Positions 6,426-21,846 of a DNA stretch of 64,000 nt are shown here, one piece after another. The DNA is from a virus (Duplodnaviria; Heunggongvirae; Uroviricota; Caudoviricetes): IMG/VR virus record IMGVR_UViG_3300037067_019759; one strand, written 5' to 3'. Under the pieces are notes generated by a model. It was not told the origin of the DNA. It ran no database searches and saw nothing but the letters and a program-made list of their open reading frames with translations. Numbering within the stretch: position 1 is the first letter of the stretch; the number at the start of each line of letters is the position of its first letter. A program made the position numbers and the translations under genes.

Positions 6426-7127
6426 ATGAAAAATTTATTAATATTTGTCAATCCAGAAAAAATTTTTTTAAAGTGGTATGGACCTTCATGTGAAATCCAA
6501 ATTGATAACGCTTTTTTGATGGGATGGAAAAAAGAAGATATTCTATTGGTTACTAATTTTGACTATGAATATAATGGGATTAAATCATTGGTTGTACCCG
6601 ACTATTTGTTTTGTGAACACAGGAGAAGAGCAAGTAAAATAAATGTTATTTATTATTTATTGGAAAATAAAATAATTAAAGATCTTTGTTGGTTTCATGA
6701 TTTTGACGCTCATCAATTACAATCATTGGATGAAATAGAGGCAGAAATCAAGGGATTTGATCTGGCGATGACGGATTATGGTTATTGTGTTCGTCCGAAT
6801 TCAGCTAGTTTCTTTTTTAAACCAGAAAGTAAGGATATTATGGGAGCGGCAAAATATGTTTATGATAAAGATAAGATTAACGAGGAGACCGCATTTGATG
6901 TTTTAGTTAGAAGAAATATAAATAATATCAATGAACGATGTAAAAAATTGAATATTACGTATAGCATGGGAAGAAAAAGACAAGCTGATTATCTTATTTC
7001 TTATGAGCGAGCAATTAAACCATTTAAAGTCGTAAATATAAATCCAAGATATCCAATTTTTGAGGGATTTAAACCGTTTATGTCAAAAGAATTATTGGAT
7101 ATATTTAAACGTCATGGATTTAATTAA
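6426..7127 (+). CDS. Hypothetical DxD-motif protein, paralog of 3128
   Basis: See 3128. Same N-terminal block and HDFD motif. Confidence 0.35.
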   Translation: MKNLLIFVNPEKIFLKWYGPSCEIQIDNAFLMGWKKEDILLVTNFDYEYNGIKSLVVPDYLFCEHRRRASKINVIYYLLENKIIKDLCWFHDFDAHQLQSLDEIEAEIKGFDLAMTDYGYCVRPNSASFFFKPESKDIMGAAKYVYDKDKINEETAFDVLVRRNINNINERCKKLNITYSMGRKRQADYLISYERAIKPFKVVNINPRYPIFEGFKPFMSKELLDIFKRHGFN

Positions 7128-7131
7128 AAAT

Positions 7132-7611
7132 ATGAATTTAAAATTTGGCAAAGAGACGGCTACCCATTTACCAATTTTAATTAAATTAGTAAATATGACA
7201 AATGGTCCAATTCTTGAATTGGGTACGGGCATATTTTCGACTCCTTATTTGCATTGGGCATGTTTTGAAAATAAACGAAAACTCGTGTCCTATGAAGAAA
7301 AACAAAGTTATTTTGAAATGGTTAAACAATATGTTTGTGATTACCATTTTATTTTTACGGATTTAAATAAAATTGAAGAGGAGCATTGGAGTATTGTATT
7401 AGTTGATCAATATCCTTCAGGTAGAAAAGAATCAATAAAAAAATTGGTAAATTCGGCTGATTATATTGTTCTTCATGACTCTAATGATGAGTATGATGAA
7501 ACTTATAAGTATTCGGAAATTTATCCGTTATTCAAGTATAGATATGATTTTGACAAAGTATTGCCAAGAACAACAGTAGTTTCTAATTTTAAGGATTTAA
7601 CAAATTTATGA
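7132..7611 (+). CDS. SAM-methyltransferase-like protein, family A paralog. The listed ORF 7060 overlaps the upstream gene; the internal ATG at 7132 was chosen.
   Basis: MNLKFGKETATHLPILIKLVNMTNGPILELGTGIFSTPYLHWACFENKRKLVSYE parallels ORF 787. Confidence 0.4.
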   Translation: MNLKFGKETATHLPILIKLVNMTNGPILELGTGIFSTPYLHWACFENKRKLVSYEEKQSYFEMVKQYVCDYHFIFTDLNKIEEEHWSIVLVDQYPSGRKESIKKLVNSADYIVLHDSNDEYDETYKYSEIYPLFKYRYDFDKVLPRTTVVSNFKDLTNL

Positions 7612-8222
7612 AATTTTTAGACGCAATTAAACAAAAAGGAAATCCATTTATAATTCCCGATTGTGGAAGGGATAATTTACCCGGATTTTTTGTTGAAATG
7701 GGATATAAGGTAGGGGTAGAAATAGGAGTATTGAGAGGTAAATTTAGTAAAAAATTAAGTCAGGCGGGATTAAAATTATACGCCATTGATCCCTGGATTG
7801 GTTTTCATGGACAAGGACGCACTCAAAATGAACAAATTGTTCAAGATGGATATTATGAACAAACTAAAAAGATTTTAACTCCTTATAAAAATTGTACTAT
7901 CATTAGGAAAACATCAATGGAGGCATTGGTTAATTTTAAAGATAAAAGTTTGGACTTTGTTTTTATCGACGGGGATCATGATTTTAGGCATGCGGCAGAA
8001 GATATTTTTGAATGGAGCAAGAAAGTTAGGGCGGGTGGAGCGGTGGCAGGGCATGATTATTTTGATACAGCTCCATTTGCTCGTAATATGGTATGTAATG
8101 TAAAATCAGTATTGGATGCCTATGTTAAGGCGTTTGATATTACGGATTGGTATTTATATAGACCGGATGGGGCGACCGATGCGGATGATAAATGTTACTC
8201 GTGGATGTTTATTCGTAAATAA
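7608..8222 (+). CDS. Class I SAM-dependent methyltransferase, family B paralog
   Basis: VGVEIGVLRGKFS. AIDPW. VFIDGDHDF. AGGAVAGHDY. Same order and motifs as 5670. Confidence 0.55.
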   Translation: MKFLDAIKQKGNPFIIPDCGRDNLPGFFVEMGYKVGVEIGVLRGKFSKKLSQAGLKLYAIDPWIGFHGQGRTQNEQIVQDGYYEQTKKILTPYKNCTIIRKTSMEALVNFKDKSLDFVFIDGDHDFRHAAEDIFEWSKKVRAGGAVAGHDYFDTAPFARNMVCNVKSVLDAYVKAFDITDWYLYRPDGATDADDKCYSWMFIRK

Positions 8223-8230
8223 ATAATTAT

Positions 8231-8956
8231 ATGGAGAAAAAAGTAGGAGCGATATATTATACTGACTTTCACGCGGATTCATTGATTATGAATATATGTT
8301 TAGAACAACTTAAAAAAAGTTTTAACGGAGAAATTGTTTCCGTTTCATTAAAACGACCATTGGATTTGGGAAAAAATATTATTTTAAATGAAGTTAGAAG
8401 TTATCCTACGATGTCTTTACAAATTTTAACTGCGCTAGAAGCATTAACTGCAGATTATGTTTATTTTTTAGAGCATGACGTTTTATATGCATCCGAACAT
8501 TTTTCTTTCATTCCAGATAGAGATGATATTTATTATTATAATGTTAATAATTATCGCTGGGCTTTTGGTGCTGATACTGCGATAACTTACGATGGCTTAA
8601 CTTCGCTTTCAGGTATGTGTTGTAATAAAGAATTGGCGATTAGACATTATAAATACAGATTAAAAATAATAAAAGAACAAGGGTTAGATAAAATGAGAAG
8701 CAGGGAACCCCGCTGGGGTCGAAAATTTGGTTATGAACCAGGGACGAAATCAAAAAGAAATGGTGGTATAACTGATGAAGGACACATAAAACGAAAGTCT
8801 ATTGTTCCTAATATAGATATTAGACATAGATATACTTTTAGTGCACCTAAAATTACGTTAGAATCATTTAAACATAAACCTACGGGATGGATAGAAAAAC
8901 CTATAGAAGAAATAGAAGGTTGGAATTTGCGTAGTTTATTCAATCTTAAAAAATAA
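8231..8956 (+). CDS. Hypothetical protein, paralog of 4510
   Basis: AIYYTDF...IVSVSLKRPLDLGKNI matches ORF 4510. LEHDVLYASEHF acidic motif. Confidence 0.35.
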   Translation: MEKKVGAIYYTDFHADSLIMNICLEQLKKSFNGEIVSVSLKRPLDLGKNIILNEVRSYPTMSLQILTALEALTADYVYFLEHDVLYASEHFSFIPDRDDIYYYNVNNYRWAFGADTAITYDGLTSLSGMCCNKELAIRHYKYRLKIIKEQGLDKMRSREPRWGRKFGYEPGTKSKRNGGITDEGHIKRKSIVPNIDIRHRYTFSAPKITLESFKHKPTGWIEKPIEEIEGWNLRSLFNLKK

Positions 8957-9749: not shown

Positions 9750-10745
9750 ATGGATAAAAGAAAGTATTTATTATCGATCGTCATTCCAACAAGGTCAGAA
9801 ATGTTTTTAGCTCGCACTATTGAAGATTTAATACAAAATACTTCCGATCAAACCGAAATAATCGCCGTATTGGATGGAAAATGGAGTGATCCGCCGATTG
9901 CTGACCATCCACGAGTTAACTTAATTTATTTACCAGAAAGTGTCGGTCAACGTGCCGCTACAAATTTGGGTGTAAAACTTTCTAGAACAAAATATGTGGC
10001 CAAAACAGATGCGCACTGTGCTTTCGACAAAGATTTTGATTTAAAAATGTTAGAGGCATTTAAAAGGACAGGAGATAACGTCACGATGGTGCCAGTTATG
10101 AAAAATCTGCATGCCTTTAGTTGGAATTGCCGAGATTGTAACTGGAAGTTGTATCAAGGCCCTACACCCAATAAATGTGGAAGATGCGGAGGAGCTAACC
10201 TCAGAAGGAAGATGATTTGGCAACCAAGGGCACATGTTAACAGCACTAGTTACTGTTTCGATGCCGAACCGCATTTCCAGTATTTTGAAGATTATAAACA
10301 TAGACCCCAATATATAAAAGATAAAGCGGAAACGGGTTTAACGGAAACTATGTCATTACAGGGTAGTTTTTTCATGTGTACAAGAGAAAAATATTGGGAA
10401 CTTAAATTATGCGATGAAGAATTTGGTTCGTGGGGGAATCAGGGGATTGAGGTAGCTGCGAAAACTTGGCTTTCAGGAGGTCGTGTTTTGTGTAATAGCA
10501 AATGTTGGTATGCCCACATGTTTAGAACTCAGGGAGGCGATTTTAGTTTTCCCTATCCTCAGTCTGGTCGTGAAGTTGCTAGATGTAAAGCAAAAGTTAG
10601 GGATATGTTTTGGAAAAATAAATATCCTAATCAGATATATCCGCTTTCATGGTTAGTGGAAAAATTCTGGCCGATACCTGGGTGGAGTGAACAAAATCTA
10701 CAAGACTTAAAAATTAGTGGAAGTAATTTTGTAAATTTAAAATAA
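9750..10745 (+). CDS. Family-2 glycosyltransferase with inserted CxxC zinc ribbon
   Basis: LLSIVIPTRSE. AVLDGKW. DAH. CRDCNW...CGRCGG insert. Confidence 0.55.
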   Translation: MDKRKYLLSIVIPTRSEMFLARTIEDLIQNTSDQTEIIAVLDGKWSDPPIADHPRVNLIYLPESVGQRAATNLGVKLSRTKYVAKTDAHCAFDKDFDLKMLEAFKRTGDNVTMVPVMKNLHAFSWNCRDCNWKLYQGPTPNKCGRCGGANLRRKMIWQPRAHVNSTSYCFDAEPHFQYFEDYKHRPQYIKDKAETGLTETMSLQGSFFMCTREKYWELKLCDEEFGSWGNQGIEVAAKTWLSGGRVLCNSKCWYAHMFRTQGGDFSFPYPQSGREVARCKAKVRDMFWKNKYPNQIYPLSWLVEKFWPIPGWSEQNLQDLKISGSNFVNLK

Positions 10746-11547: not shown

Positions 11548-14500
11548 ATGTTTAATTTTAATGAAAAATTTTTTGAAAAATATCAAAAACAATTATTATT
11601 TATTGCAAATTGTTGGTATTTGCGATGGTTTTTGGGTTTGCATCGGTTGTCTAAAAAGATAAAAAAAGAAACAAAAATAATTTCAAAAATAACACCAAAT
11701 TCAATCTACGTAAAGATAAATGATGTAAAATATAAAAAATATTGTTTTGTTAATAATCGTTTTGCGGAATCATTATTTTATAATTTTTATCCTTTTTATT
11801 ATTTTCGATCATTGAAAAAAAATTCTTTTTGGAGATTAAGTCCGATAAAATTAGCATATCAAGTCTTTTTTTATATTATTGGAATCAAATTTTTTAATAT
11901 ACCTTTTATTATTTTTGGAACAACGGTAACTGATTTTTATTCTGGTTCTGGTGATGGGGAAGTGGCCAATTACAATGCCTCGTGGGATACTTGCCAATCG
12001 GCGACGGACGGAGTAGATGCCTTACCAGCCGGAGCGAGTAGAATAGCTGGAATTTATAAGCAAGGTGGTGGTGATTACAGCATTGAAAGATTATTTACTC
12101 CTTTTCTCACTTCCGATTTGCCTGATGATGCAAATATTACAATAGTAACTTTGACTTTATTTACCGTGAATGAAGTTATAGATAATGATAATGATGGCAA
12201 TGATTTTCTGACGGTAGTGCAAACCTCGCAAGCGGACAATACTACCTTGGGGACTGCTGATTTTGACAAGTGCGGCGATGCCATTACTAATCCAACGGAG
12301 GGAGTGGATAGTGGAAACAGAATTGATATTTCCGGTATTTCCACTTATTCATCAATTACTTTCACGCTTAATTCCACTGGCAGAGGCTGGGTTAATAAAA
12401 CGGGATATACTCTATTGGGAGTACGTGAAGGACACGATGTTTTAGACGATCCACCAACATTATCAAATGGACAAGGAAATTATGTTAGGTTTTATATGTC
12501 GGAACAGACAGGATCGGATACTGATCCTTGTTTAGAAATTACTTATGTTAGTTCCAGTACATCTCCTAGTATTTCTCCTTCCGCTAGTCCTTCGACGTCT
12601 ATCTCTCCTAGCATAAGCCCCAGTATTTCCCCTTCTGTTAGTCCATCTACATCTATTTCTCCAAGTATAAGCCATAGTGTTAGCCTTTCAATATCTCCCT
12701 CTAAAAGTCCTAGCTTTTCTCCCTCTATTAGCCCTTCTTTATCTCCTTCTAAAAGTCCCAGTATCAGTCCCTCTGTTAGTCCTTCCGTCTCTATCTCTCC
12801 TTCTAAAAGCCCTAGTGTTAGCCCTTCTTTATCTCCTTCTAAAAGTCCCAGTATCAGTCCCTCTGTTAGTCCTTCCGTCTCTATCTCTCCTTCTAAAAGC
12901 CCTAGTGTTAGCCCTTCTTTATCTCCTTCTAAAAGTCCCAGTATCAGTCCCTCTGTTAGTCCTTCCGTCTCTATCTCTCCTTCTAAAAGCCCTAGTGTTA
13001 GCTCTTCAATGTCTCCGTCCGTTAGTCCTTCTGCATCACCTAGCACTAGTATATCACCGAGTATTTCTCCTTCAATTTCTCTTTCATTTTCACCCAGCAT
13101 CAGTCCTTCTGTTAGTCCTTCTGTTTCTATAAGTCCCTCTATTTCTCCTAGTTTTTCTTTTAGTATTAGTCCCTCTATCAGTCCGAGTACTTCACCATCA
13201 GCGAGTATATCTCCCTCTATCAGCCCGAGCTTAAGTCCTTCATTAAGCTCTAGTTTTTCTTTTTCATTGAGTCCATCTTTTTCGCCATCTATTAGTCCCT
13301 CTACTTCTCCTAGCGTTAGCATCAGTCCTTCAAAATCTCCAAGTATAAGTCCAAGTAAATCTCCTTCTTTTTCTCCTAGTTTCTCTCCTTCTGCCAGTCC
13401 TTCAATTTCACCATCTGTGTCTCCTAGTACATCTTTGTCACCTTCTTTGTCTCCCTCTATTTCTCCCAGTAATTCACCATCTTTTAGCCCTTCCGTTTCT
13501 CCATCTGTTTCAATATCGCCATCCTTATCACCAAGTTTTTCTTCTTCTAAAAGTCCTAGTATTTCTCCTTCTATCAGTCCCTCTGTTTCTCCTTCAATTA
13601 TTTCTAGTTTTAGTCCATCGTTGAGTCCTTCTGTTAGTCCTTCCATATCTCCCTCTTTAAGTCCCTCTCTTAGTCCTTCTTTTTCTCCTAGTTTAAGCCC
13701 TAGTATCAGTCCTTCGGAATCTCCTAGTACTAGTATCAGTCCTTCCAAATCTCCATCTATTAGTCCTTCTTTTTCTCCTAGTTTAAGTCCCAGTATTAGT
13801 CCCTCCGAATCTCCTAGCACCAGCATCAGCCCTTCTAAATCTCCTTCTTTAAGTCCCAGCATCAGCTTTTCTTTTTCTCCCAGTTTTAGTCCAAGTGTTA
13901 GCTTTTCTAAATCTCCTTCTTTAAGTCCTAGTATCAGTCCTTCCGCATCTCCTAGTGTTAGTATTAGCCCCTCAATATCTCCTTCTTTAAGCCCCAGTAT
14001 CAGTCCTTCAATTTCTTCCTCCTTAAGTTCTAGCGTCAGTTCTTCTTTTTCTCCTTCTCTGAGCCCTAGTATTAGTCCTTCTGTTTCTCCTAGCGTTAGT
14101 ATCAGTCCTTCTTTGTCTCCCTCTTTAAGTCCTTCTCTTAGTCCTTCCGTTTCTCCTAGCGTTAGTATCAGTCCTTCTTTGTCTCCCAGTCTGTCTCCGT
14201 CTTTAAGTCCCTCAATTTCTCCTTCTTTTAGTCCTTCTTTTTCTCTTTCTTTAAGCCCAAGTATTAGTTTATCTTTTTCTCCCTCTATTAGTCCCTCCAT
14301 ATCCCCCTCTCCAAGTCCCGGCTGGTTAGATTATACGAGAGGCGATTACGCTGATTTACCTAACGATGATAACTATTTAGAAACTAATTATTCCGCACAG
14401 GATTATTTAGATGTAGCGGAAAAAGATAATATTAGAGTGGATCAGACAGCAACAGTAGAATATGCGATTCATGAATTTAAGGAATATGCTGGCGTAGTAA

Positions 14501-14727
14501 ATTCTTGTACTATAGAATGGTATGGCAGAACTAACTGTGATGCTTCTTTAAGTGCGGTTTATTTACAAATTTATAATTATATTACTCCTGGTTGGGAAAC
14601 GATTGATTCTAATAACACGGTGGCAGAAGATGTTAATTTTTCTTTAACTGCCTCTAAAGCAAATTTAACTAATTATAAAAATGGAAGTGGAGTGGCTACT
14701 TTTAGAGTATATCAATTAGCATTATAA
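11548..14727 (+). CDS. Virion fibre-like protein. N-terminal globular domain, then roughly 590 aa of (x)SPS tandem repeat, then a C-terminal domain.
   Basis: ATG at 11548. The core is hundreds of ISPS/VSPS/KSPS/LSPS units encoded by near-perfect 90-bp DNA tandem repeats (12710-12990). Flanking domains are low-complexity-free. Confidence 0.55.
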   Translation: MFNFNEKFFEKYQKQLLFIANCWYLRWFLGLHRLSKKIKKETKIISKITPNSIYVKINDVKYKKYCFVNNRFAESLFYNFYPFYYFRSLKKNSFWRLSPIKLAYQVFFYIIGIKFFNIPFIIFGTTVTDFYSGSGDGEVANYNASWDTCQSATDGVDALPAGASRIAGIYKQGGGDYSIERLFTPFLTSDLPDDANITIVTLTLFTVNEVIDNDNDGNDFLTVVQTSQADNTTLGTADFDKCGDAITNPTEGVDSGNRIDISGISTYSSITFTLNSTGRGWVNKTGYTLLGVREGHDVLDDPPTLSNGQGNYVRFYMSEQTGSDTDPCLEITYVSSSTSPSISPSASPSTSISPSISPSISPSVSPSTSISPSISHSVSLSISPSKSPSFSPSISPSLSPSKSPSISPSVSPSVSISPSKSPSVSPSLSPSKSPSISPSVSPSVSISPSKSPSVSPSLSPSKSPSISPSVSPSVSISPSKSPSVSSSMSPSVSPSASPSTSISPSISPSISLSFSPSISPSVSPSVSISPSISPSFSFSISPSISPSTSPSASISPSISPSLSPSLSSSFSFSLSPSFSPSISPSTSPSVSISPSKSPSISPSKSPSFSPSFSPSASPSISPSVSPSTSLSPSLSPSISPSNSPSFSPSVSPSVSISPSLSPSFSSSKSPSISPSISPSVSPSIISSFSPSLSPSVSPSISPSLSPSLSPSFSPSLSPSISPSESPSTSISPSKSPSISPSFSPSLSPSISPSESPSTSISPSKSPSLSPSISFSFSPSFSPSVSFSKSPSLSPSISPSASPSVSISPSISPSLSPSISPSISSSLSSSVSSSFSPSLSPSISPSVSPSVSISPSLSPSLSPSLSPSVSPSVSISPSLSPSLSPSLSPSISPSFSPSFSLSLSPSISLSFSPSISPSISPSPSPGWLDYTRGDYADLPNDDNYLETNYSAQDYLDVAEKDNIRVDQTATVEYAIHEFKEYAGVVNSCTIEWYGRTNCDASLSAVYLQIYNYITPGWETIDSNNTVAEDVNFSLTASKANLTNYKNGSGVATFRVYQLAL
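12356..12454 (+). repeat. 99-bp segment of fibre gene 11548 with an exact inverted copy at 36009-36107
   Basis: The reverse complement of 36009-36107 equals 12356-12454 base for base (TTACTTTCACGCTTAATTCC...GTTTTAGACGATCCAC). Confidence 0.7.
12543..14310 (+). repeat. Coding tandem repeat (TCN-CCN-AGN periodic, SPS) including three near-identical 90-bp units at about 12710-12990
   Basis: Visible DNA periodicity. Blocks such as tctaaaagtcccagtatcagtccctctgttagtccttccgtctctatctctcct recur exactly. Confidence 0.7.
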
Positions 14728-14734
14728 GAAATAA

Positions 14735-17683
14735 ATGAATAAATTACTTGCCAATTTAATACGAATTATAACGGAAATACTACATTGGATTTTGTCGTTT
14801 TTTGTTGATGAACAAGTATTATCAGAGTGGAAATTTTTACATCTTTGTTGGTGGTTTCGTAAACACGGGTTAAAAATTCCGAAGTATTTTATTGGGGCGG
14901 ATACTGGGGCGTTAAGTCCAGGAACAATGGCAGATGACGCAACAGTCGGCACTGTGGCGTGGACGAATCCTGATAATGCGAAGGTGAGTGATAATGTGTA
15001 TGCGAGTGCCGTATTATCGGGAGATTCTCATTATCTCAAAGCAACTAATTTTGGATTTTCTATTCCTAGCGGAGCAACTATAAACGGAGTTGTTGTAGAG
15101 ATACAAAAAAAAGGTTCATATCCAGTAGGAGACTTTCTTGTTGATAAATATGTGAAAATAGTTAAGGCAGATGGAACTATTGGAACAACAAATAAGGCAG
15201 ATACAACAACAAATTGGCCTACTAGCGAAGCATATAAAACCTATGGAGCGAATAATGATTTATGGGGAGAAACTTGGACGGCAGAAAATATAAATGATGT
15301 AGATTTTGGAGTAGTTATTTCTACACAATATACAGGAGTAAATGCTTACATTGACCACATCCGTATCACAGTTTATTACACGGAAGCAATTTCAACTTCG
15401 CCATCTATTAGTCCTTCTATTTCACCAAGTATATCATTTTCCACTTCATTAAGTCCTAGCATTTCTCCTTCTGTTAGTTCTTCTTTTTCTCCCTCTGAAA
15501 GTTCTAGTATTTCACCTTCAGTATCTCCGCCACCTCAAACTAATTTACAGACAGATTATTGGAAAGTTATTTTTGGAGAAATTCCAAGTTTTAGTCCTTC
15601 TGTTAGTCCTAGTATTAGCCCTAGTTTTTCTCTTTCAATTTCTCCTTCCGTTAGTCCTTCCGCTAGTCCAAGTACTAGTATTAGTCCTTCTATTAGTCCT
15701 AGTGTTAGTCCTAGTTTTTCTCCTTCAATTTCTTTTTCCATTAGTCCTTCTGTTAGTCCTAGCGTTAGTATTAGTCCTTCCATTTCTCCTAGCATCAGTC
15801 CATCTATAAGTCCTAGTGTTAGTTTTAGTTTTTCTCCTTCCATCAGTCCTTCTGTTAGTCCTAGCGTTAGTATCAGCCCTTCTCTTTCTCCTAGCATTAG
15901 TCCGTCTGCTAGTCCATCCATTTCTATTAGTCCTAGTTTTTCACCAAGTATTAGTCCAAGTAAAAGTCCTAGCATTTCTTCAAGTATTTCTCCTTCCATC
16001 AGCCCTAGCGCTAGTCCTTCTGCTAGCGTTAGTCCTTCCATATCTCCATCTATTAGTCTGAGTATTTCACCCTCTATATCTCCTAGCTTTAGTCCTTCCG
16101 TTTCTCCTAGCATTAGTATCAGTCCTTCATTCAGTCCTTCATTAAGTCCAAGTGTTAGTCCTTCACTAAGTCCAAGCGTTAGCTCTTCAATATCATCTTC
16201 TATTAGTCCTTCCGTTTCTCCTAGCAACAGTATCAGTCCTTCGTTAAGTCCTTCGTTAAGTCCAAGTGTTAGTCCCTCAATATCGCTTTCCGTCAGTCCT
16301 TCCGAATCTCCTAGTGTTAGTATCAGTCCTTCTATTTCTCCGAGCATTAGTCCTTCCGTTAGTCCTTCAATATCGTCAAGTTTTTCACCCTCTGTTTCAC
16401 TGAGTGTTAGTATCAGTCCTTCTTTTTCTCCCTCTGTCAGTCCTAGCTTTTCTCCCTCTGTCAGTCCTTCCGTGTCTATCTCTCCAAGCATAAGTCCTAG
16501 CGTTAGTCCTTCAATGTCTCCCTCTAAAAGTCCTAGCTTTTCTCCCTCTGTCAGTCCTTCTTTTTCTTTCTCTATTAGTCCATCTACATCTATTTCTCCA
16601 AGTATAAGCCCCAGTGTTAGCCCTTCAATATCTCCCTCTAAAAGTCCTAGCTTTTCTCCCTCCGTCAGTCCTTCCGCGTCTATCTCTCCAAGCATAAGCC
16701 CCAGCATTAGTCCCTCTGTTTCTCCTTCAATTATTTCTAGTCTTAGTCCATCGTTGAGTCCTTCTGTTAGTCCTTCCATATCTTTATCCCAGTCTCCGTC
16801 TATATCGATAAGCCCATCTTTATCGCCAAGTTTTAGTGTTTCGATTAGTTCATCTATTTCTCCGTCTATTAGCCCCTCAATATCTCCTTCTTTAAGCCCC
16901 AGTATTAGTCTCTCAATTTCTCCCTCCTTAAGCCCCAGTATCAGTCCTTCTTTTTCTCCTTCTTTTTCTCCTTCTGTCAGTCCTAGCTTTTCTCCCTCCG
17001 TCAGTCCTTCAATTTCTATAAGTCCATCATTATCACCAAGCATTAGTCCTTCCATTAGTTTTTCTTTTTCATTATCCCTTAGTCCTTCTGTCAGTCCTAG
17101 CTTTTCTCCTTCCGCCAGTCCTTCAATTTCTATAAGTCCATCAATATCACCAAGCATTAGTCCTTCTGTTAGTCCGTCTGTTTCACCGAGCGTTTCTCCC
17201 TCAATTTCTTTTAGTTTAAGTCCGAGTTTCAGTCCGTCCTTCTCTCCTAGCTTTAGTCCTTCCATTAGTTTTTCAATATCTCCTAGTGTTTCACCAAGTT
17301 TTTCATCGAGTTTTTCACCATCTTTTAGTCCATCTGTTTCACCGAGCTTTTCACCATCTTTTAGTCTATCTGTTTCACCTAGTATTAGTCCTTCTTTTAG
17401 TACTTCCATCTCTCCAAGTTTAAGCCCGAGTATAAGTCCTTCCATTAGTCCGTCGTTTTCGCCAAGTGTATCTCCCTCTATTAGTCCTTCAGTTAGTCCT
17501 TCGCCTAGTTTTGAAATCAACGATTGGGTTCCAATTGGTGAAATTGAAGTTGAATATATAAATGGATGTATAGAAACAGAAACTATGACGGGTGAAATAG
17601 ATACTGAATATATGCGCGGATGTATAGAAACAGAAACGATAATAGGCGAAATAGAGACTGAAGATATAAGAGGAACGAGATAA
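14735..17683 (+). CDS. Virion fibre-like protein with a roughly 700-aa SPS-repeat core and a C-terminal GEIETE/GCIETET repeat tail
   Basis: Same repeat class as 11548. The N-terminal domain differs. C-terminal 3x repeat EYINGCIETETM.GEI.TE. Confidence 0.55.
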   Translation: MNKLLANLIRIITEILHWILSFFVDEQVLSEWKFLHLCWWFRKHGLKIPKYFIGADTGALSPGTMADDATVGTVAWTNPDNAKVSDNVYASAVLSGDSHYLKATNFGFSIPSGATINGVVVEIQKKGSYPVGDFLVDKYVKIVKADGTIGTTNKADTTTNWPTSEAYKTYGANNDLWGETWTAENINDVDFGVVISTQYTGVNAYIDHIRITVYYTEAISTSPSISPSISPSISFSTSLSPSISPSVSSSFSPSESSSISPSVSPPPQTNLQTDYWKVIFGEIPSFSPSVSPSISPSFSLSISPSVSPSASPSTSISPSISPSVSPSFSPSISFSISPSVSPSVSISPSISPSISPSISPSVSFSFSPSISPSVSPSVSISPSLSPSISPSASPSISISPSFSPSISPSKSPSISSSISPSISPSASPSASVSPSISPSISLSISPSISPSFSPSVSPSISISPSFSPSLSPSVSPSLSPSVSSSISSSISPSVSPSNSISPSLSPSLSPSVSPSISLSVSPSESPSVSISPSISPSISPSVSPSISSSFSPSVSLSVSISPSFSPSVSPSFSPSVSPSVSISPSISPSVSPSMSPSKSPSFSPSVSPSFSFSISPSTSISPSISPSVSPSISPSKSPSFSPSVSPSASISPSISPSISPSVSPSIISSLSPSLSPSVSPSISLSQSPSISISPSLSPSFSVSISSSISPSISPSISPSLSPSISLSISPSLSPSISPSFSPSFSPSVSPSFSPSVSPSISISPSLSPSISPSISFSFSLSLSPSVSPSFSPSASPSISISPSISPSISPSVSPSVSPSVSPSISFSLSPSFSPSFSPSFSPSISFSISPSVSPSFSSSFSPSFSPSVSPSFSPSFSLSVSPSISPSFSTSISPSLSPSISPSISPSFSPSVSPSISPSVSPSPSFEINDWVPIGEIEVEYINGCIETETMTGEIDTEYMRGCIETETIIGEIETEDIRGTR
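15400..17510 (+). repeat. Coding SPS tandem repeat region of gene 14735
   Basis: Same repeat class. About 2.1 kb. Confidence 0.7.
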
Positions 17684-17700
17684 AAGTACCAAAAATACTG

Positions 17701-17719
17701 GATTTATGGTATAATATAA
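17701..17719 (+). promoter_or_regulatory. Extended -10 promoter (TGgTATAATATAA) upstream of structural gene 17738
   Basis: gatttatggTATAATataat lies 19 nt before the ATG. Confidence 0.4.
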
Positions 17720-17737
17720 TTAACTAATTTTACCAAA

Positions 17738-19123
17738 ATGGTCAATATTAAAGCCCAAAATAATATTTTGCTTAAAAGCGCAAAATTCTCCTACCTATCG
17801 GCGAATTATTTATCTGGAGTGACTTCTTTGGTTTTGTCTAATAGTGATGGATTCTATCCGTATACGATCGGCGCGTCCAGTACACAATTCGACATCACAA
17901 ATACTACCGGGACTACCTTTCGGTATACTTATGATACAACCGGTACAGACCCTGAAATAGGAGAGAATATCCAAGTAAATTCGCAAGTAGTTATTAATGG
18001 TCAAAATTTTACGGTTGCCAATAATGGCACATTTACGGTTACTGCGTTTAGCACTAATTATTTCGAAGTTACCAACGCTAGCGGGGTAGTAGAGTCAAAC
18101 AAAACTCTAGGCACGGGGTCACTTTCTGTGGGAAGAAATAATTTTGTTTTGCTCGGTGAGTTTGGTTCTGAAACGTCGGAAATAGTGACGGTGAGTAGTG
18201 TTAATAAGAGTACGCATACACTTACTTTGAGCGCGGCGACTAAATTTTCACATAGTCAAGATACTAAAGCGTATGTATTAGGTTATGATAAAGTAAAATT
18301 TTTTCATACAACGACAGCGACTTTTAATACAACTACTCCCATAAGTGGATATCTTGATATATCTGCAGATTCGTTATATACGACAGGATCAGACGCTGCA
18401 AATTCTACCGGTTTTGGTTGGTTTTATTTCTATAATAGTATTACTGCCAAAGATTCAGCTACGAGTAATGCTGTTCCATATTCTTCGTTTGGAGAAAACA
18501 GCGTTAAAAGTATATTAGAAATTTTTTATAGTTTGCTTAATGATAAAGAACGGAAATTGATAACTGATACTGACTCTTTACATTGGCTCAATGAAGCTTA
18601 TTCGATTGCTCAAAATTCTTTAAATTTGGTAAATAGAGAATATTTTGCGGATAGTATAGATACTATAACTTCTGTTTCTGGTACTGCTGAATATGATTTA
18701 GAAAATGATTTTTCATCTGTAATTAATATTTATGATGAAACTAATGAAAAAAATATAGAATGGATAGATTTGAGAAATGTATCTTCTTGGAATTATGATT
18801 CTAACAATACTACTCATTATTATTTAAAAGGAGGAAAAATTGGATTTTCTCCAATTCCCAGTTCTGCAATAGAATATTCAGTCCGTTATAATTATAAAAC
18901 AACAGCGGTTAGTTCTTATTACGAAAACATAGATTTGCCAAATGGAAATTTTTATTGTGTTATAAATTTTATGTTGCATCGTGCTGGAATAAAATTGGGT
19001 AAAAGTGATGCAATGAATTATTTAAAATTATTTGATAAAGATATTGAACGAATGAAGTTAACTAGTTTTAAACAGAATGCGAATTTAGACAGTTGGGGAA
19101 TGGAAAAAAGTAGTTGGGTTTAG
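17738..19123 (+). CDS. Virion structural protein (baseplate or tail-associated candidate)
   Basis: Thr/Ser/Asn-rich, beta-rich composition in the structural block. An extended -10 promoter lies immediately upstream. Confidence 0.4.
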   Translation: MVNIKAQNNILLKSAKFSYLSANYLSGVTSLVLSNSDGFYPYTIGASSTQFDITNTTGTTFRYTYDTTGTDPEIGENIQVNSQVVINGQNFTVANNGTFTVTAFSTNYFEVTNASGVVESNKTLGTGSLSVGRNNFVLLGEFGSETSEIVTVSSVNKSTHTLTLSAATKFSHSQDTKAYVLGYDKVKFFHTTTATFNTTTPISGYLDISADSLYTTGSDAANSTGFGWFYFYNSITAKDSATSNAVPYSSFGENSVKSILEIFYSLLNDKERKLITDTDSLHWLNEAYSIAQNSLNLVNREYFADSIDTITSVSGTAEYDLENDFSSVINIYDETNEKNIEWIDLRNVSSWNYDSNNTTHYYLKGGKIGFSPIPSSAIEYSVRYNYKTTAVSSYYENIDLPNGNFYCVINFMLHRAGIKLGKSDAMNYLKLFDKDIERMKLTSFKQNANLDSWGMEKSSWV

Positions 19124-19214
19124 ATATTATGAAGGTTTTGTTCGTTTATAGATAAAAGTTTATTTAAAAAATCTTTTTTAATCAGTATATATTTTTCATT
19201 ATTAATTTGTTCGG

Positions 19215-19580
19215 CTATCGTAGCCCATTGACAATTAAGAAGTTCATATCATCTTTAAAATTTTTAAATTCTAACCATCTATCACAAACTTTAATTCCTT
19301 TTGCTCCATAATATTTATATACTTTACGGTTAGAATTCAAACATCTTTGCTTCATTCCATGCCAAATAGCATAAAATCTTGTTTTAGATAATTTATGAAT
19401 ATTATGTGAACACCCACAACTTTTAATACCGCCACTTGTTAAATGTCGAGCTACTACAATATGTTGGTTGCCACAATTACATTTACAATACCAATAAGAT
19501 TGATGATTTTTCATATAAGCAAAACTGACAACGGTTAATTTATTAAATTTTTGACCGATTAATTTTAACTTTTTACGCAT
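19215..19580 (-). CDS. Small zinc-binding phage protein. Likely a free-standing mobile-gene or homing-endonuclease-associated DNA-binding module.
   Basis: Motif LTVV...WYCKCNCGN...SCGCS...IWHGMKQRC...YKYYGAKGIKVCDRW, a Cys4 cluster common in phages. Carries the same promoter/pseudoknot leader topology as the HNH genes. Confidence 0.4.
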   Translation of the reverse strand: MRKKLKLIGQKFNKLTVVSFAYMKNHQSYWYCKCNCGNQHIVVARHLTSGGIKSCGCSHNIHKLSKTRFYAIWHGMKQRCLNSNRKVYKYYGAKGIKVCDRWLEFKNFKDDMNFLIVNGLR

Positions 19581-19723
19581 AAAATTATAATTTATAAACA
19601 GAAAATCCCGCCTTAATAAATAGTAATCTTTCGCAAAAACTATCTATTAAAACGAGATTCTCTGTGCGAAAGATTAAAAGTAAGTTATAAATACAGTATA
19701 TCATACTTCTTAAATAAAGTCAA
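19581..19723 (-). promoter_or_regulatory. Promoter (TTGACT-17-TATACT) plus sequence-divergent pseudoknot of the same topology, upstream of zinc-protein gene 19215-19580
   Basis: -35 at 19718-19723, -10 at 19695-19700. Stem 1 is 19666-19673 with 19627-19635 (TCTTTCGCA/TGCGAAAGA). Stem 2 is 19653-19665 with 19598-19612 (13 bp including two G-U pairs). Confidence 0.45.
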
Positions 19724-19740
19724 GTATTAAATTAAATTAT

Positions 19741-21846
19741 ATGATCAGTAATTCAAATCTTCCTCTCAGAGTCGAAATTTCATATTGGGATGGAATAAAT
19801 TCCGCAGTTTCTTCATCTTTGGTTAAAAAAAATGAACTGAGTTACGCCATAAACGCCAGATCAAAATCCATTGGTAGCATAGAAAAACGTGAAGGAACAA
19901 AAAAATTAGGCAATAGTATCGTAGCTACCGCTAACTATGATATTTTTTACTTCGAGAATGCTCGAACTCCTATTGCAAGTCTTTCTCCTTCAATTTCGCC
20001 ATCAACTAGTCCTTCTATTTCTGTTAGTCCTTCAATTTCGCCATCAGAAAGTCCTTCAATTTCCCTCAGTCCATCTTTTTCGCCGTCAATTAGTCCCTCT
20101 ATTTCGCCATCAGTAAGTCCTTCGCTTTCTCCATCCTTTAGTCCATCTATTAGCCCCTCAGTAAGTCCATCTAATTCGCGTAGCCCCTCTATTTCGCCAT
20201 CTGTTAGCCCCTCGATTTCTCCCAGTTCATCCCCCTCCTCTAGTGTATCACCATCAGCTAGCACTACTACTATTAATGGTTTTTACCGCATTTCTAAAGT
20301 TGGTGGTGTAACTTCTGTTTATTATTTAGATGGTTCTGATACTTGGGTGGCGCTTATAGGAAATGGTACCAATCTTACCGCCGCTAATTTTTCTCATACC
20401 ATTACTGAAGATTGTTGTTTTTTTGTCAATGGTTATGATCTTAATCGTTATATACATTCTGACGGGGTTACTGTTACTACCGCTACAGGTTCTACGGGTC
20501 ATTTATATAATTCTCCTACGGCTCATAAAATAAATTATTATAAAAATAAATTATATTTAGGTGATTATACTGTCGGAGCGAATCGCTACAAAAACGGTAT
20601 AATGATGTCTTCGGAACCATTAGGAATTATTTCTCTTGTTAACGGCGATCATTTATCTGGTGTTACTACTATAAATGTTACTGATAGTAAATATATTTAT
20701 GCGACTGATAGTTTGGACGTATATAGAGGAAATACAAAAATCCAAACATTAACCGTATCTGCTAAAACAGAAAATACAATTACAGTTACTGCGACTACTA
20801 ATGCTTTATTAAGTTCTGATGAACTTTGGGTAAAAGATACTTATGACGGTACTACTTCTAAAAAATTCCGTTGGGCTGGCAATCCGGCAAGCGGAATAAA
20901 TGTCAAACAGTACGATACGATGTTTCTAAGCGGCGGTCAAAACGACGCGATTACGATGATGACAAATATAGGAGATGTGATGATGATAGGGAATAAACAC
21001 AATCTTGCTGTCTGGAATAATAGTAGTCTACAAAATATAGATATCGGAGTAGGTTGCGTAAGCGAACGCGGGTACGTTAAGAATGATGGCGTTTTATATT
21101 TTCTTGATTATTCCGGTGTCTATGCTACTACCGGTGGATTGCCTAAACAAGTATCTGCCAAGGTGCAGAGTTACTTCGATGGTTCTACGAAGGCGGGATT
21201 AGAAGCGGGAGCTATGGGGAAAAAAGGTTCTAGTGTCTTTTGCTCCCTTGGCGACGTTACATTATATTGGCCGGATGGATCGATACGTGAAACGCTTACT
21301 GACGTAGTAATGGAGTTCAACGTACAGCAACAAAACTGGTATATTTTAACTGGAATTTCGTCCACGCAATTTGCTACTTATATTACGTCTAGTGACACAG
21401 ATAGATTGGAGTATAGTGATGATGGTACAAATTGCGATATCCTCGAATTTTTATATAGTGGATCAGCGGTCGATAACGATGGCGTTACTAATAAAGAAAT
21501 ACTTTTTGAAATTGAAACAAATAATATAAATTTTTCAAAGCCATTTGAACGAGTGGTATTCCCGATTGAGGTAATCTTAGAAGCAGAACGCGGGCATGCC
21601 ATCCAATGTTTTGTTAAATTAGATGATGGACAACCGTACGAACTTTCGGGTGAAGGTGTCAAAGGATGCACCGTTTTCCGTATAAAGAACAAAGATATTA
21701 ATAATTCCGTTCCAGTTCGTTGTCGTAACTTGTCTGTAATTTTAAAGGATTTTAGCAAGAGTTTATGCAAAATTACAAGGATTGCAGTGACGTACCTTCC
21801 GTCTAATGAAGAATATACCCAAGATTCAGTTACTTATGGAAAATAA
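19741..21846 (+). CDS. Virion structural protein with an N-terminal roughly 90-aa SPS repeat segment and a large C-terminal domain
   Basis: ISPSTSPSISVSPS... repeat at aa 80-175, then non-repetitive beta-rich sequence. Confidence 0.5.
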   Translation: MISNSNLPLRVEISYWDGINSAVSSSLVKKNELSYAINARSKSIGSIEKREGTKKLGNSIVATANYDIFYFENARTPIASLSPSISPSTSPSISVSPSISPSESPSISLSPSFSPSISPSISPSVSPSLSPSFSPSISPSVSPSNSRSPSISPSVSPSISPSSSPSSSVSPSASTTTINGFYRISKVGGVTSVYYLDGSDTWVALIGNGTNLTAANFSHTITEDCCFFVNGYDLNRYIHSDGVTVTTATGSTGHLYNSPTAHKINYYKNKLYLGDYTVGANRYKNGIMMSSEPLGIISLVNGDHLSGVTTINVTDSKYIYATDSLDVYRGNTKIQTLTVSAKTENTITVTATTNALLSSDELWVKDTYDGTTSKKFRWAGNPASGINVKQYDTMFLSGGQNDAITMMTNIGDVMMIGNKHNLAVWNNSSLQNIDIGVGCVSERGYVKNDGVLYFLDYSGVYATTGGLPKQVSAKVQSYFDGSTKAGLEAGAMGKKGSSVFCSLGDVTLYWPDGSIRETLTDVVMEFNVQQQNWYILTGISSTQFATYITSSDTDRLEYSDDGTNCDILEFLYSGSAVDNDGVTNKEILFEIETNNINFSKPFERVVFPIEVILEAERGHAIQCFVKLDDGQPYELSGEGVKGCTVFRIKNKDINNSVPVRCRNLSVILKDFSKSLCKITRIAVTYLPSNEEYTQDSVTYGK
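19980..20262 (+). repeat. Coding SPS tandem repeat region of gene 19741
   Basis: agtccttcaatttcgccatca-type units. Confidence 0.6.

What the first reader, a model, noticed from the sequence alone, without database searches (positions are those of the whole stretch)
11548..21846. Three virion proteins built around extremely long (I/V/L/K/F)SPS tandem repeats encoded by near-perfect DNA repeats
Gene 11548 has about 590 aa of repeat, gene 14735 about 700 aa and gene 19741 about 90 aa. At the DNA level some 90-bp units are repeated exactly three times (12710-12990). That predicts high recombinational instability and length polymorphism, a contingency-locus-like behaviour, in fibre length or spacing. 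Each gene's repeat is flanked by distinct globular N- and C-terminal domains that are probably receptor-binding or attachment domains. The C-terminus of 14735 carries its own GEIETE.I.GCIETET repeats. The reverse-strand ORFs at 12543-14300 and 15556-17520 are mirror artefacts of the repeat.
Basis: seen in the sequence. Interest (0 to 1): 0.55.

Follow-up and report, generated by a model that had tools for sequence, protein, structure and literature searches.

The report
Likely glycosylated serine-repeat phage fibre proteins
Three genes of this phage encode proteins with stretches of 100 to 700 residues in which every second amino acid is serine, and such stretches always sit next to a mucin-type sugar-adding enzyme, both in related phages and in the tiny CPR bacteria they probably infect, which points to an undescribed family of sugar-coated stalk proteins rather than to unstable DNA repeats.

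Summary
The repeats are real: 597, 713 and 102 residues in the three genes. They are stricter than described. Serine fills every second position without losing register, and the other positions alternate proline with I/V/L/F/K.

The DNA is not near-perfect. Only about 280 bp of gene 1 is (90 bp x3.1). Gene 2 has no exact repeat over 32 bp, and serine uses both codon families, so selection acts on the protein.

The flanking domains model as carbohydrate-binding-module folds.

The key finding lies outside the given coordinates. A glycosyltransferase just upstream (9750-10745) most resembles polypeptide GalNAc-transferases, the enzymes that start mucin O-glycosylation. Its homologues are followed by SPS-repeat genes in 15 of 20 phage-type loci. 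The same holds in 25 of 28 Patescibacteria (CPR) genome loci with at least 8 kb downstream, where repeats reach 2050 residues.

Best reading (inferred, not shown): the repeats are O-glycosylated, extended stalks or loops on virion appendages, built by a cassette shared with the probable CPR host.

Contingency-locus behaviour is not supported. Independent assemblies are identical across the repeats.

No description was found in the literature searched. I rate it a new variant of a known kind.

The parts
9750..10745 (+). Glycosyltransferase (GT-A fold, Pfam GT2) resembling polypeptide GalNAc-transferases. It has a DAH motif at 10008, a WGNQGIE Gal/GalNAc-T-like motif at 10431 and an inserted 4-Cys ribbon (CRDC 10128, CGRC 10176). 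Proposed initiating O-glycosyltransferase for the SPS repeats.
   Evidence: Pfam PF00535 E 1e-15. The best PDB hits are GALNT7/9/10/1/2. With a family profile, 14 of 16 PDB hits are named polypeptide GalNAc-transferases, best 1xhb at E 6e-8, and both motifs align. Invariant Cys columns. Synteny with SPS genes.
3828..4508 (+). Second family-2 glycosyltransferase (rhamnosyl/galactosyl-transferase-like). Candidate glycan-extending enzyme.
   Evidence: Pfam PF00535 E 1e-11. PHROG glycosyltransferase and galactosyl transferase hits. NCBIfam rhamnosyltransferase, below its cut-off.
4510..8956 (+). Conserved accessory cassette, partly duplicated in this phage. Unknown proteins are 4510-5151 and 8231-8956 (paralogues), 5144-5665 and 7060-7611 (paralogues, also 787-1320), and 6426-7127 (paralogue of 3128-3892). 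Two Methyltransf_24 enzymes lie at 5670-6281 and 7608-8222.
   Evidence: Pfam. Homologues of 4510, the methyltransferase, 8231 and the GT occur in nearly all 18 IMG/VR loci and most of the 80 CPR loci. In cellular loci the cassette sits with TylF sugar O-methyltransferase and UDP-sugar enzymes.
1326..3131 (+). Two radical SAM/SPASM enzymes (1326-2102, 2112-3131). Facultative neighbours, not part of the conserved core. Role unknown.
   Evidence: Pfam PF04055 plus PF13186. No NCBIfam family reaches its cut-off. The 1326 homologue is in 9 of 18 IMG/VR loci and the 2112 homologue in none. They occur in only 3 of 80 CPR loci.
11548..14727 (+). g1, 1059 aa. It has a conserved N-terminal region (aa 1-125), a DNRLRE/CBM96-like beta-sandwich (aa 135-335, 11950-12552), a 597-aa (X-Ser)n SPS repeat (12541-14331) and a C-terminal beta-sandwich domain (aa 930-1059, 14335-14724).
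   Evidence: The C-domain family has 921 representatives. In 88 of 118 an SPS-type repeat lies directly upstream.
12728..13007 (+). The only near-perfect DNA repeat: a 90-bp unit (30 aa, seven xSPS plus one xS), 3.1 copies, 99% matches. It is a recent duplication. Its copy number is the one feature a short-read assembly could get wrong.
   Evidence: Longest exact repeat 185 bp.
14735..17683 (+). g2, 982 aa. It has three N-terminal helices, a CBM32/lectin-like jelly roll (aa 55-218, 14897-15388), an SPS repeat in two segments (15383-17521) separated by the conserved LQTDYWKV motif (15530-15586), and a 57-aa C-terminal tail of 9-residue repeats with two Cys (17510-17680).
   Evidence: The same interruption motif occurs in the L004 homologue. 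Analogous short tandem-repeat tails occur in relatives.
17738..19123 (+). SU10-type adaptor protein. It marks the virion tail module.
   Evidence: Pfam PF24175 E 1e-15. Homologues lie next to g3 homologues in L043 and L044.
19741..21846 (+). g3, 701 aa. It is a conserved structural-module protein that follows the adaptor. A 102-aa SPS repeat (19966-20271) is inserted as a loop after residue 75.
   Evidence: 189 homologues. About 107 of 120 lack any Ser-rich insert, and others carry SPS inserts at different sites. Nozzle identity is not shown.
12543..14300 (-). Mirror ORF (GLxEGE-like). Not a gene. The same applies to 15556-17520 and 19947-20264 on the - strand.
   Evidence: A gene caller annotated the equivalent mirror ORF on the Logan contig.

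Best explanation
The three proteins are appendage proteins of a roughly 100-kb tailed phage. Its host is probably a Patescibacteria (CPR) bacterium.

Their (X-Ser)n 'SPS' segments are acceptor domains for dense O-glycosylation, analogous to mucin tandem repeats or to the serine-rich repeats of Gram-positive adhesins.

Proposed pathway:
- The soluble polypeptide-GalNAc-transferase-like enzyme encoded just upstream (9750-10745) adds the first sugar to the serines in the host cytoplasm.
- The second GT2 and the Methyltransf_24 enzymes extend and O-methylate the glycan.
- The result is an extended, protease-resistant 'bottle-brush'.

In g1 and g2 the brush acts as a long stalk (contour up to about 200-250 nm) joining carbohydrate-binding-module-like domains to the particle. 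In g3 and its relatives it is a surface loop that simply displays glycan.

Shown: the repeat anatomy, selection on the protein rather than the DNA, the CBM-like folds, the GT's similarity to GalNAc-transferases, and the strict GT-to-SPS gene order in phages and CPR genomes.

Inferred: that the serines are glycosylated, by which sugar, that g1 and g2 are in the virion, and what the stalk is for.
For: 1. Ser sits at every second residue over 597 and 640 residues, with both Ser codon families in use. The constraint is therefore on the protein.
2. The repeat is uncharged, has Pro every fourth residue, and models as coil with pLDDT below 50.
3. The best solved relatives of the GT are polypeptide GalNAc-transferases, with the DxH and Gal/GalNAc-T motifs aligned.
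4. Fifteen of 20 phage-type loci that carry a GT homologue have an SPS ORF directly downstream. Two more have one upstream. The other three end less than 2 kb after the GT.
5. In GTDB genomes, 25 of 28 loci with at least 8 kb downstream have an SPS ORF, always downstream on the same strand. Median Ser-phase occupancy is 0.99 and repeats reach 2050 aa.
6. In closed CPR chromosomes the cassette sits with UDP-GlcNAc 4,6-dehydratase, UDP-GlcNAc 2-epimerase, a carbamoyltransferase and a TylF sugar O-methyltransferase.
7. A relative with no GT homologue in the 10 kb upstream of its g3 homologue uses (TSSS)n instead of SPS. Two contigs with repeat-less g1/g2 homologues also show no GT homologue, but they hold only 2.6-3.6 kb upstream.
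8. SPS segments are inserted at different loop positions of the g3 family. This fits a display or coat role.
9. g1 and g2 carry CBM-like domains.
10. Known precedents exist: SdgA/SdgB glycosylate Ser-Asp dipeptide repeats and protect them from proteolysis (PMC3794999); SRR adhesins are O-glycosylated in the cytoplasm (PMC6973325, PMC7948813); and mycobacteriophage capsid and tail-tube subunits carry glycans at their C-termini (as summarised in PMC12619734).
Against: - There is no biochemical evidence; everything rests on sequence, synteny and models.
- The similarity to GalNAc-transferases is modest (E 1e-6 to 6e-8 against PDB) and covers about 120-240 residues. The enzyme lacks the lectin domain and membrane anchor of true GT27 enzymes.
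- The sugar donor is unknown.
- A quarter of the repeat residues are large hydrophobics, which is unusual for mucin-like domains.
- Three of 28 well-covered CPR loci lack an SPS ORF.
- The phage cassette could instead modify host envelope components, as has been suggested for surface-modification genes of CPR phages (10.1101/2025.02.25.640227).
- The virion location of g1 and g2 is inferred from gene position only.
- g3 shows no detectable similarity to solved nozzle or fibre proteins.
Confidence: 0.6

Rival explanations
1. The repeats are plain, unglycosylated flexible or PPII-like linkers. The upstream glycosyltransferase cassette is an auxiliary module acting on something else, such as the host cell envelope or a polysaccharide.
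For: AF2 gives coil. Ser/Pro-rich linkers between CBMs are common (my own knowledge). CPR phages are reported to carry surface-modification genes, read as host-directed (10.1101/2025.02.25.640227).
Against: A simple linker does not need Ser at 99% of alternate positions over hundreds of residues. The GT-to-SPS gene order is kept in phages and in cellular genomes. The GT resembles protein O-glycosyltransferases. A relative with no GT homologue nearby uses a different repeat.
Confidence: 0.2
2. One reading: the repeats are contingency-like loci. Recombination between near-identical DNA units gives frequent length variants of the fibres within a population.
For: One 90-bp unit is repeated 3.1 times at 99%. 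g1 and g2 share six exact segments of 33-41 nt, which suggests occasional exchange. Repeat length ranges from about 50 to 2050 aa among relatives.
Against: Outside 12728-13007 the DNA has diverged: the longest exact repeat is 32 bp in g2 and 19 bp in g3. Units are multiples of 6 bp, so no frame switching occurs. L017 equals L018 and L020 equals L025, both 100% identical across long repeats in different samples. The window and L001 differ by 1 base in 10,491.
Confidence: 0.1
3. g1 and g2 are not virion parts. They are phage-borne copies of the host's SPS surface glycoprotein, expressed on the infected cell, for example for exclusion or adhesion.
For: CPR chromosomes carry the same cassette followed by a giant SPS protein, with TatC next to it in six loci. 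Phage and cellular SPS proteins share N-terminal domain types.
Against: g1 and g2 lie inside the tail module next to the adaptor. Repeat-less homologues with the same N-terminal region sit at that position in other phage contigs. There is no signal peptide or TatC in the window. g3, a conserved structural-module protein, also carries SPS.
Confidence: 0.15
4. The radical SAM/SPASM enzymes modify these proteins in a RiPP-like way, for example by thioether links at the Cys-containing C-terminal tail of g2 or by epimerisation in the repeat.
For: Two rSAM/SPASM genes lie at the head of the cluster. Cys occurs in the tails of the window, L017/L018 and L019, all of which have the rSAM gene. It is absent from five tails in loci without the gene.
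Against: L036 and L039 have the rSAM gene but Cys-free tails. The 1326 homologue is in only 9 of 18 phage loci and the two rSAM genes together in only 3 of 80 cellular loci. No family assignment reaches its cut-off. No C/S-x-P-x-R motif occurs in the repeats.
Confidence: 0.08
5. The long repeats are assembly artefacts (expanded or chimeric).
For: The Logan short-read contig breaks inside the g2 repeat. Many related contigs end in the repeat. The 90-bp x3 block could be mis-counted.
Against: There are zero stops over 597 and 713 codons, in frame with domains homologous to other proteins on both sides. Apart from one block the sequence is unique at k of 45 or more. The same architecture appears in dozens of independent contigs, including closed chromosomes. 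Independent assemblies are identical.
Confidence: 0.03

Closest known systems
Serine-rich repeat glycoproteins of Gram-positive bacteria (Fap1, GspB, Srr1/2)
   Same: They have hundreds of residues of Ser-X dipeptide repeats that form a stalk carrying a binding region. Dedicated glycosyltransferases encoded beside the gene O-glycosylate them in the cytoplasm (PMC6973325, PMC7948813, PMC5207161).
   Different: Here X alternates between Pro and a hydrophobic residue. The neighbouring enzyme is a GT-A GalNAc-transferase-like protein, not GtfA/GtfB. There is no SecA2/SecY2, signal peptide or LPXTG. The carriers are a phage and CPR bacteria.
Staphylococcal Ser-Asp repeat proteins with SdgA/SdgB
   Same: A strict dipeptide repeat with Ser at every second position acts as a stalk. 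Two glycosyltransferases decorate it stepwise, and the sugars protect it from proteolysis (PMC3794999).
   Different: There the partner residue is Asp, so the repeat is acidic. Here it is uncharged Pro or a hydrophobic residue. The GT family and the organisms differ.
Eukaryotic mucin-type O-glycosylation (GT27 polypeptide GalNAc-transferases acting on Pro/Thr/Ser tandem repeats)
   Same: These are the best solved relatives of the adjacent GT, with the DxH and Gal/GalNAc-T motifs. The acceptor is a long Ser/Pro tandem repeat. In P-S-x-S-P, one serine has Pro at -1 and +3 and the other has Pro at +1. These are positions known to favour GalNAc-transferases (my own knowledge).
   Different: The phage enzyme has no ricin-type lectin domain and no membrane anchor, and it carries an extra 4-Cys insert. 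Mucins use mostly Thr. The sugar here is unknown.
Mycobacteriophage virion glycosylation
   Same: Phage-encoded glycosyltransferases decorate structural proteins. Glycans at the C-termini of capsid and tail-tube subunits are thought to shield the particle (as summarised in PMC12619734, citing Freeman et al. 2023).
   Different: Those acceptor segments are at the C-termini of capsid and tail-tube subunits. Here the acceptors would be arrays of 100-700 residues (up to about 1400 in relatives) in fibre-like and loop positions. The enzyme type differs, and the system is shared with the host lineage.
Ser/Thr/Pro-rich O-glycosylated linkers joining carbohydrate-binding modules in cellulases and other glycoside hydrolases (my own knowledge)
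   Same: CBM-fold domains are joined by Pro- and hydroxy-amino-acid-rich extended linkers. Where studied, these are glycosylated.
   Different: Those linkers are tens of residues long and lack a strict register. These are up to 700 residues with Ser at every second position.

Membership tests
GT27 polypeptide GalNAc-transferase (mucin-type initiation) | GT-A catalytic domain with a DxH metal-binding motif | tested here: met
   DAH at residues 87-89 aligns with the DAHCE of GalNAc-T1. D87 and H89 are invariant in 15 homologues.
GT27 polypeptide GalNAc-transferase (mucin-type initiation) | Gal/GalNAc-T motif (WGGENxE ... GG ... H.FR) | tested here: met
   WGNQGIEVAAKTWLSGG...YAHMFR aligns to GALNT1/2/7/9/10.
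GT27 polypeptide GalNAc-transferase (mucin-type initiation) | C-terminal ricin-type lectin domain and type II membrane anchor | tested here: not met
   The protein is 331 aa. Pfam finds only PF00535 in the N-terminal part. No hydrophobic N-terminus is seen.
GT27 polypeptide GalNAc-transferase (mucin-type initiation) | Transfers GalNAc to Ser/Thr of a peptide | not testable with these tools
   Needs an enzyme assay or mass spectrometry.
Serine-rich repeat glycoprotein / accessory Sec system | Long Ser-X dipeptide repeat region | tested here: met
   Ser at 294/298, 317/320 and 48/51 alternate positions.
Serine-rich repeat glycoprotein / accessory Sec system | GtfA/GtfB glycosyltransferase pair, SecA2/SecY2/Asp export genes, LPXTG anchor | tested here: not met
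   Pfam, PHROG and NCBIfam scans of the cluster ORFs show only GT2, methyltransferases and rSAM. No LPXTG or signal peptide appears in the sequences.
Contingency locus (simple-sequence length or phase variation) | Tracts of identical short units prone to slippage | tested here: not met
   Only 12728-13007 is near-perfect. The longest exact repeat is 32 bp in g2 and 19 bp in g3.
Contingency locus (simple-sequence length or phase variation) | Length differs between samples of the same strain | tested here: not met
   L017 equals L018 and L020 equals L025 at 100%, and the window matches L001. These are consensus assemblies only. Read-level variation was not testable.
SU10-like podophage tail module | Adaptor protein of family PF24175 | tested here: met
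   17738-19123, E 1e-15.
SU10-like podophage tail module | g3 is homologous to the SU10 nozzle or fibre | tested here: not met
   hhalign of the g3 family against SU10 gp13 and gp12 gives probability below 1%. There is no PDB sequence hit.
DNRLRE / CBM96 carbohydrate-binding module (g1 N-domain) | Fold and sequence match | tested here: inconclusive
anSME / formylglycine maturation | C/S-x-P/A-x-R acceptor motif in the substrate | tested here: not met
   No match in any repeat. The single match, in the globular part of g3 (aa 656), has a Ser that is not conserved in homologues.

The most novel reading that the evidence does not exclude
CPR/Patescibacteria and their phages share an undescribed, mucin-like protein O-glycosylation system. 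It consists of a GalNAc-transferase-like enzyme with a methyltransferase cassette, plus (X-Ser)n acceptor arrays up to 2050 residues long. The phage has taken over both enzyme and acceptor, so its fibres carry the same glycan brush as the host's giant surface proteins. This would serve mimicry, or homotypic penetration and adhesion to the host's coat.
Probability: 0.35. Interest if true: 0.85.

Novelty: new variant of a known kind. Interest (0 to 1): 0.7.

Why it matters
If the serines are glycosylated, this would be a prokaryotic and viral counterpart of mucin-type glycosylation. The acceptor 'code' (Ser at every second residue, Pro at every fourth) can be read straight from sequence.

It would explain a large set of unannotated giant proteins in CPR genomes. 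It would also link a roughly 100-kb phage lineage to CPR hosts, and extend virion glycosylation from mycobacteriophages to a quite different phage group and enzyme family.

There are practical consequences. The repeats break short-read assemblies, and their reverse strand is called as false genes. Knowing the pattern improves both annotation and binning.

Tried and rejected
- The adaptor protein found nothing in INPHARED phages or in IMG/VR.
- Full g3 against PDB gave only low-complexity hits to circumsporozoite protein.
- Pfam on the isolated domains gave nothing useful. PF27237, precomputed for one C-domain homologue, is not in the local Pfam copy.
- The g2 N-domain profile against PDB sequences found nothing; only the fold search worked.
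- The g3 family profile against PDB found nothing. hhalign against SU10 gp12 and gp13 also found nothing, so 'nozzle' stays a guess from gene order.
- Proteins 8231-8956 and 3128-3892 gave nothing against PDB. PHROGs gave nothing informative on the unknown cassette proteins.
- I tested whether the rSAM gene co-occurs with Cys in the C-terminal tails. It looked perfect in eight loci but broke with L036 and L039, so I rejected it as a rule.
- The assembly-artefact and contingency-locus readings were considered and largely rejected.
- Literature searches found no description of this system. Terms covered the repeat string, mucin-like or glycosylated phage fibres, GalNAc-transferase in phages, Patescibacteria glycoproteins and CPR phages. 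The Freeman 2023 paper itself is not held.

Full report
**What is there**

The window is part of a tailed phage. It has an SU10-type adaptor (17738-19123, PF24175, E 1e-15), an M23 peptidase, a primase-polymerase/DnaB helicase and several HNH/NUMOD3 homing endonucleases. There are no tRNAs, and G+C is about 31%. A gene product identical to most of g3 is on record from a JGI contig of 97,961 bp.

- g1 is 11548-14727. Its repeat spans aa 332-928, 597 aa.
- g2 is 14735-17683. Its repeat spans aa 217-929, 713 aa. It is interrupted once by PPQTNLQTDYWKVIFGEIP.
- g3 is 19741-21846. Its repeat spans aa 76-177, 102 aa.

**The repeat is stricter at the protein level and looser at the DNA level than described**

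Serine occupies every second residue without losing register: 294 of 298 positions in g1, 317 of 320 in the main g2 segment, and 48 of 51 in g3. The other positions alternate Pro with I/V/L/F/K. An occasional extra 'xS' step makes every tandem-repeat period equal to 12k+6 bp. The segments are almost uncharged.

At the DNA level, only 12728-13007 is near-perfect (90 bp x3.1, 99%). The longest exact repeat is 185 bp in g1, 32 bp in g2 and 19 bp in g3.

Ser is written with both AGY (about 43%) and TCN (about 57%) codons. These cannot interconvert by a single change without leaving Ser. So the invariance is maintained on the protein in the + frame.

In the mirror frame the same position splits between Leu and Glu. 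The reverse ORFs are therefore artefacts. A gene caller nevertheless annotated one on a Logan contig.

**Is it an assembly artefact?**

This is unlikely. There are no stops in 597 and 713 codons, and homologous globular domains lie in frame on both sides.

A Logan assembly of SRR18595300 matches the window with one mismatch in 10,491 bp. The match includes 540 bp of the g2 repeat and all of g3. That contig does end inside the repeat.

Only the copy number of the 90-bp block is open to doubt.

**The flanking domains**

The full g1 model has three confident parts and a coil.
- The N-terminal region has pLDDT about 80.
- The beta-sandwich at aa 135-335 has pLDDT above 90.
- The repeat has pLDDT below 50.
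- The C-terminal beta-sandwich at aa 930-1059 is also confident.

The C-domain family has 921 representatives. In 88 of 118 with enough upstream sequence, an SPS-type repeat lies directly before it, ending in the conserved SPSPSPG(W/Y) junction.

**g3**

This is a conserved protein that follows the adaptor in many contigs. About 107 of the 120 best homologues have no Ser-rich insert.

g3 and P0181 carry the SPS segment after residue 75. P0207 carries one near residue 159, and P0204 near residue 482.

So SPS segments are insertable loops as well as linkers. I could not show that g3 is a nozzle.

**The neighbourhood gives the main lead**

Directly upstream lies a cluster: two rSAM/SPASM enzymes, a GT2, two Methyltransf_24 enzymes, several unknown paralogous proteins, and a second GT2 at 9750-10745.

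That last enzyme's best solved relatives are polypeptide GalNAc-transferases. With a profile of 15 homologues, 14 of 16 PDB hits are named polypeptide GalNAc-transferases, the best at E 6e-8. Both the DxH motif (DAH) and the Gal/GalNAc-T motif align.

Scanning IMG/VR with this enzyme gave 18 loci at 48-72% identity. With L004 and L044 that makes 20 phage-type loci.
- Fifteen have an SPS-repeat ORF directly downstream.
- Two have one upstream.
- The remaining three contigs stop less than 2 kb after the GT.

Repeats in these loci run from about 50 to 1389 residues and sit in many different domain contexts. The conserved core is the 4510-like protein, Methyltransf_24, the 8231-like protein and the GT. 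The first rSAM enzyme is present in only half of the loci, and the second in none.

One relative has no homologue of this GT in the 10 kb upstream of its g3 homologue. It uses (TSSS)n repeats in the equivalent proteins.

**The same system in CPR bacteria**

A scan of one genome per GTDB species found at least 94 loci with the GT at 51-68% identity. Where the record title gives a specific name, it is nearly always a Patescibacteria/CPR lineage. These include Woese-, Davies-, Levy-, Roizman- and Zambryski-bacteria, WWE3, Saccharibacteria and Paceibacterota. Many other records are titled only 'uncultured Gammaproteobacteria' or 'uncultured Pseudomonadales' MAGs. I suspect these are default labels, but I did not check. 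The loci include closed chromosomes.

Forty-six of the 80 loci kept have an SPS ORF, always downstream on the same strand. Among loci with at least 8 kb downstream, the figure is 25 of 28. Median Ser-phase occupancy is 0.99, Pro makes up 20%, and repeats reach 2050 residues.

These loci are cellular, not prophage.
- In two closed chromosomes the flanking genes include UDP-GlcNAc 4,6-dehydratase, UDP-GlcNAc 2-epimerase and a carbamoyltransferase.
- A TylF-type sugar O-methyltransferase also lies in these flanks.
- Downstream lie TatC, a ComM/ChlI-type ATPase and RibD_C.
- TatC lies directly after the SPS gene in six loci.
- Only one of the 80 loci has hits to the phage adaptor and g3.

Named homologues of g1 and g3 also come from Parcubacteria, Patescibacteria and Nanoarchaeota bins. 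The probable host of this phage is therefore a CPR bacterium. The cassette plus acceptor appears to be shared between host and phage.

**Mechanism proposed**

The SPS segments are acceptor domains for dense O-glycosylation of serine. The GalNAc-transferase-like enzyme would act first. The second GT2 would extend the glycan, and the Methyltransf_24 enzymes would O-methylate it. All of this would happen in the cytoplasm, before virion assembly.

Pro at every fourth residue and bulky sugars on every second would keep the chain extended. Contour lengths are about 185-215 nm for g1 and 221-257 nm for g2.

In g1 and g2 this makes a stalk that carries lectin-like modules. In g3-type proteins it makes a glycan-bearing loop.

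Possible roles are reach for host capture, protection from proteases, and mimicry of, or adhesion to, the host's own SPS coat. These roles are inference only. No tool here can show a sugar on a serine.

**Comparison with known systems**

The nearest analogues are four.
- The serine-rich repeat adhesins of Gram-positive bacteria (PMC6973325, PMC7948813).
- The Ser-Asp repeat proteins glycosylated by SdgA/SdgB (PMC3794999).
- Eukaryotic mucins with GT27 enzymes.
- Mycobacteriophage virion glycosylation (as summarised in PMC12619734).

The present system works like these, but it is not a member of any of them. It lacks GtfA/B, the accessory Sec system, LPXTG, the lectin domain of GT27 enzymes and the Asp of SDR repeats.

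Work on CPR phages has noted lectin-like and nucleotide-sugar genes, read as host-directed auxiliary genes (10.1101/2025.02.25.640227). I found no description of the SPS repeats or of this enzyme.

The contingency-locus idea is not supported. The DNA is mostly diverged, and units stay in frame. Two pairs of contigs from different samples are identical across repeats of 452 and 576 residues.

Length clearly evolves by unit duplication. The 90-bp block and the 33-41-nt segments shared by g1 and g2 are traces of this. Rapid switching would need read-level data to show.

The rSAM enzymes are not part of the conserved core.

**Verdict**

[quoted passage not shown] I rate it a new variant of a known kind.

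Confidence by claim:
- About 0.97 that the repeats are genuine coding sequence under selection on the protein.
- About 0.85 that they link or display CBM-like modules.
- About 0.6 that they are O-glycosylated by the adjacent enzyme.
- About 0.75 that the host is a CPR bacterium.

Noticed in passing
window 27432-27610 (in ORF 26748-29579): A second kind of linker: (TAP)n, about 60 residues, encoded by a 9-bp unit repeated 19.9 times at 89%. This is far more DNA-perfect than the SPS repeats. It is followed by two copies of a module of about 55 aa (IPFxxxLTDxQKQSIxTLSTKxADQW).
   Followed up: partly
window 17738-19123 (adaptor, aa ~45-135) and protein P0180: The adaptor carries an inserted domain of about 90 aa (STQFDITN..GTFTVT..). 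The same domain is inserted into a g3 homologue of another phage. It looks like a mobile decoration domain that moves between tail proteins.
   Followed up: partly
L069, L071, L078, L085, L092, L097 (CPR genome loci): TatC is encoded directly downstream of the giant SPS protein gene in six cellular loci, and never in the phage loci. This hints that the cellular glycoprotein is exported folded or glycosylated through Tat. No twin-arginine signal is visible at the N-termini, however.
   Followed up: partly
L043 174-8843 (JGI 3300033145 contig, relative of this phage): In a related phage with no GalNAc-transferase-like enzyme in the 10 kb upstream of its g3 homologue, four ORFs upstream of the adaptor (one with a g1-like C-domain) carry (TSSS)n repeats instead of xSPS.
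   Followed up: partly
window 17510-17680; L010, L017, L019, L020, L022, L024, L027, L036, L039; CPR loci L054, L065, L076, L088: Proteins that end with an SPS repeat nearly always finish in a tail of 30-70 aa. The tail is made of 2-5 short tandem peptide repeats of 9-12 aa, for example GEIETExxxGCIETET, DGHTTLLTR, DRTKPTTTFTN and IKTVNG. Their function is unknown; they may be an anchoring or oligomerisation element.
   Followed up: partly
window 15530-15586; L004 8984-9913; L019; L027; L017: Short hydrophobic motifs (LQTDYWKV, NLKVNYWHI, LSTDLWEV, ILLEDGSYLLLESG) interrupt the SPS arrays at conserved places.
   Followed up: no
window 787-8956: The modification cassette is internally duplicated. 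Paralogue sets are 787/5144/7060, 3128/6426, 4510/8231 and 5670/7608. An HNH endonuclease (8981-9748) is inserted between the cassette and the GT.
   Followed up: partly
window 45-782, 8981-9748, 19215-19580 (-), 21938-22765, 30351-31112: There are five homing-endonuclease-type genes (HNH/NUMOD3, endonuclease VII-like) scattered through the structural module. This is an unusually high density.
   Followed up: no
window 22758-26450 (C-terminal third): This fibre-like protein ends in a long Gly-rich region (GGxGG runs). The region resembles those fused to g1-type N-domains in CPR proteins P0135, P0147, P0153 and P0156; PF21722 is on record for P0135 and P0153.
   Followed up: no
window 63935-64000: A GC-rich 9-bp repeat (CGGCGCGGT, 7.3 copies or more) encodes (ARS)n inside an ORF that starts near 63749. 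It runs off the window end and stands out in a 31% G+C genome.
   Followed up: no
window 56665-56760: A 21-bp unit is repeated 4.6 times (94%) inside ORF 56337-57374, just upstream of the primase-polymerase/helicase gene. It could be iterons or a protein repeat.
   Followed up: no
proteins P0061, P0068, P0086: Some homologues of the g2 N-domain are interrupted by Hint/intein domains just before the conserved DHIRITVYYT strand.
   Followed up: no
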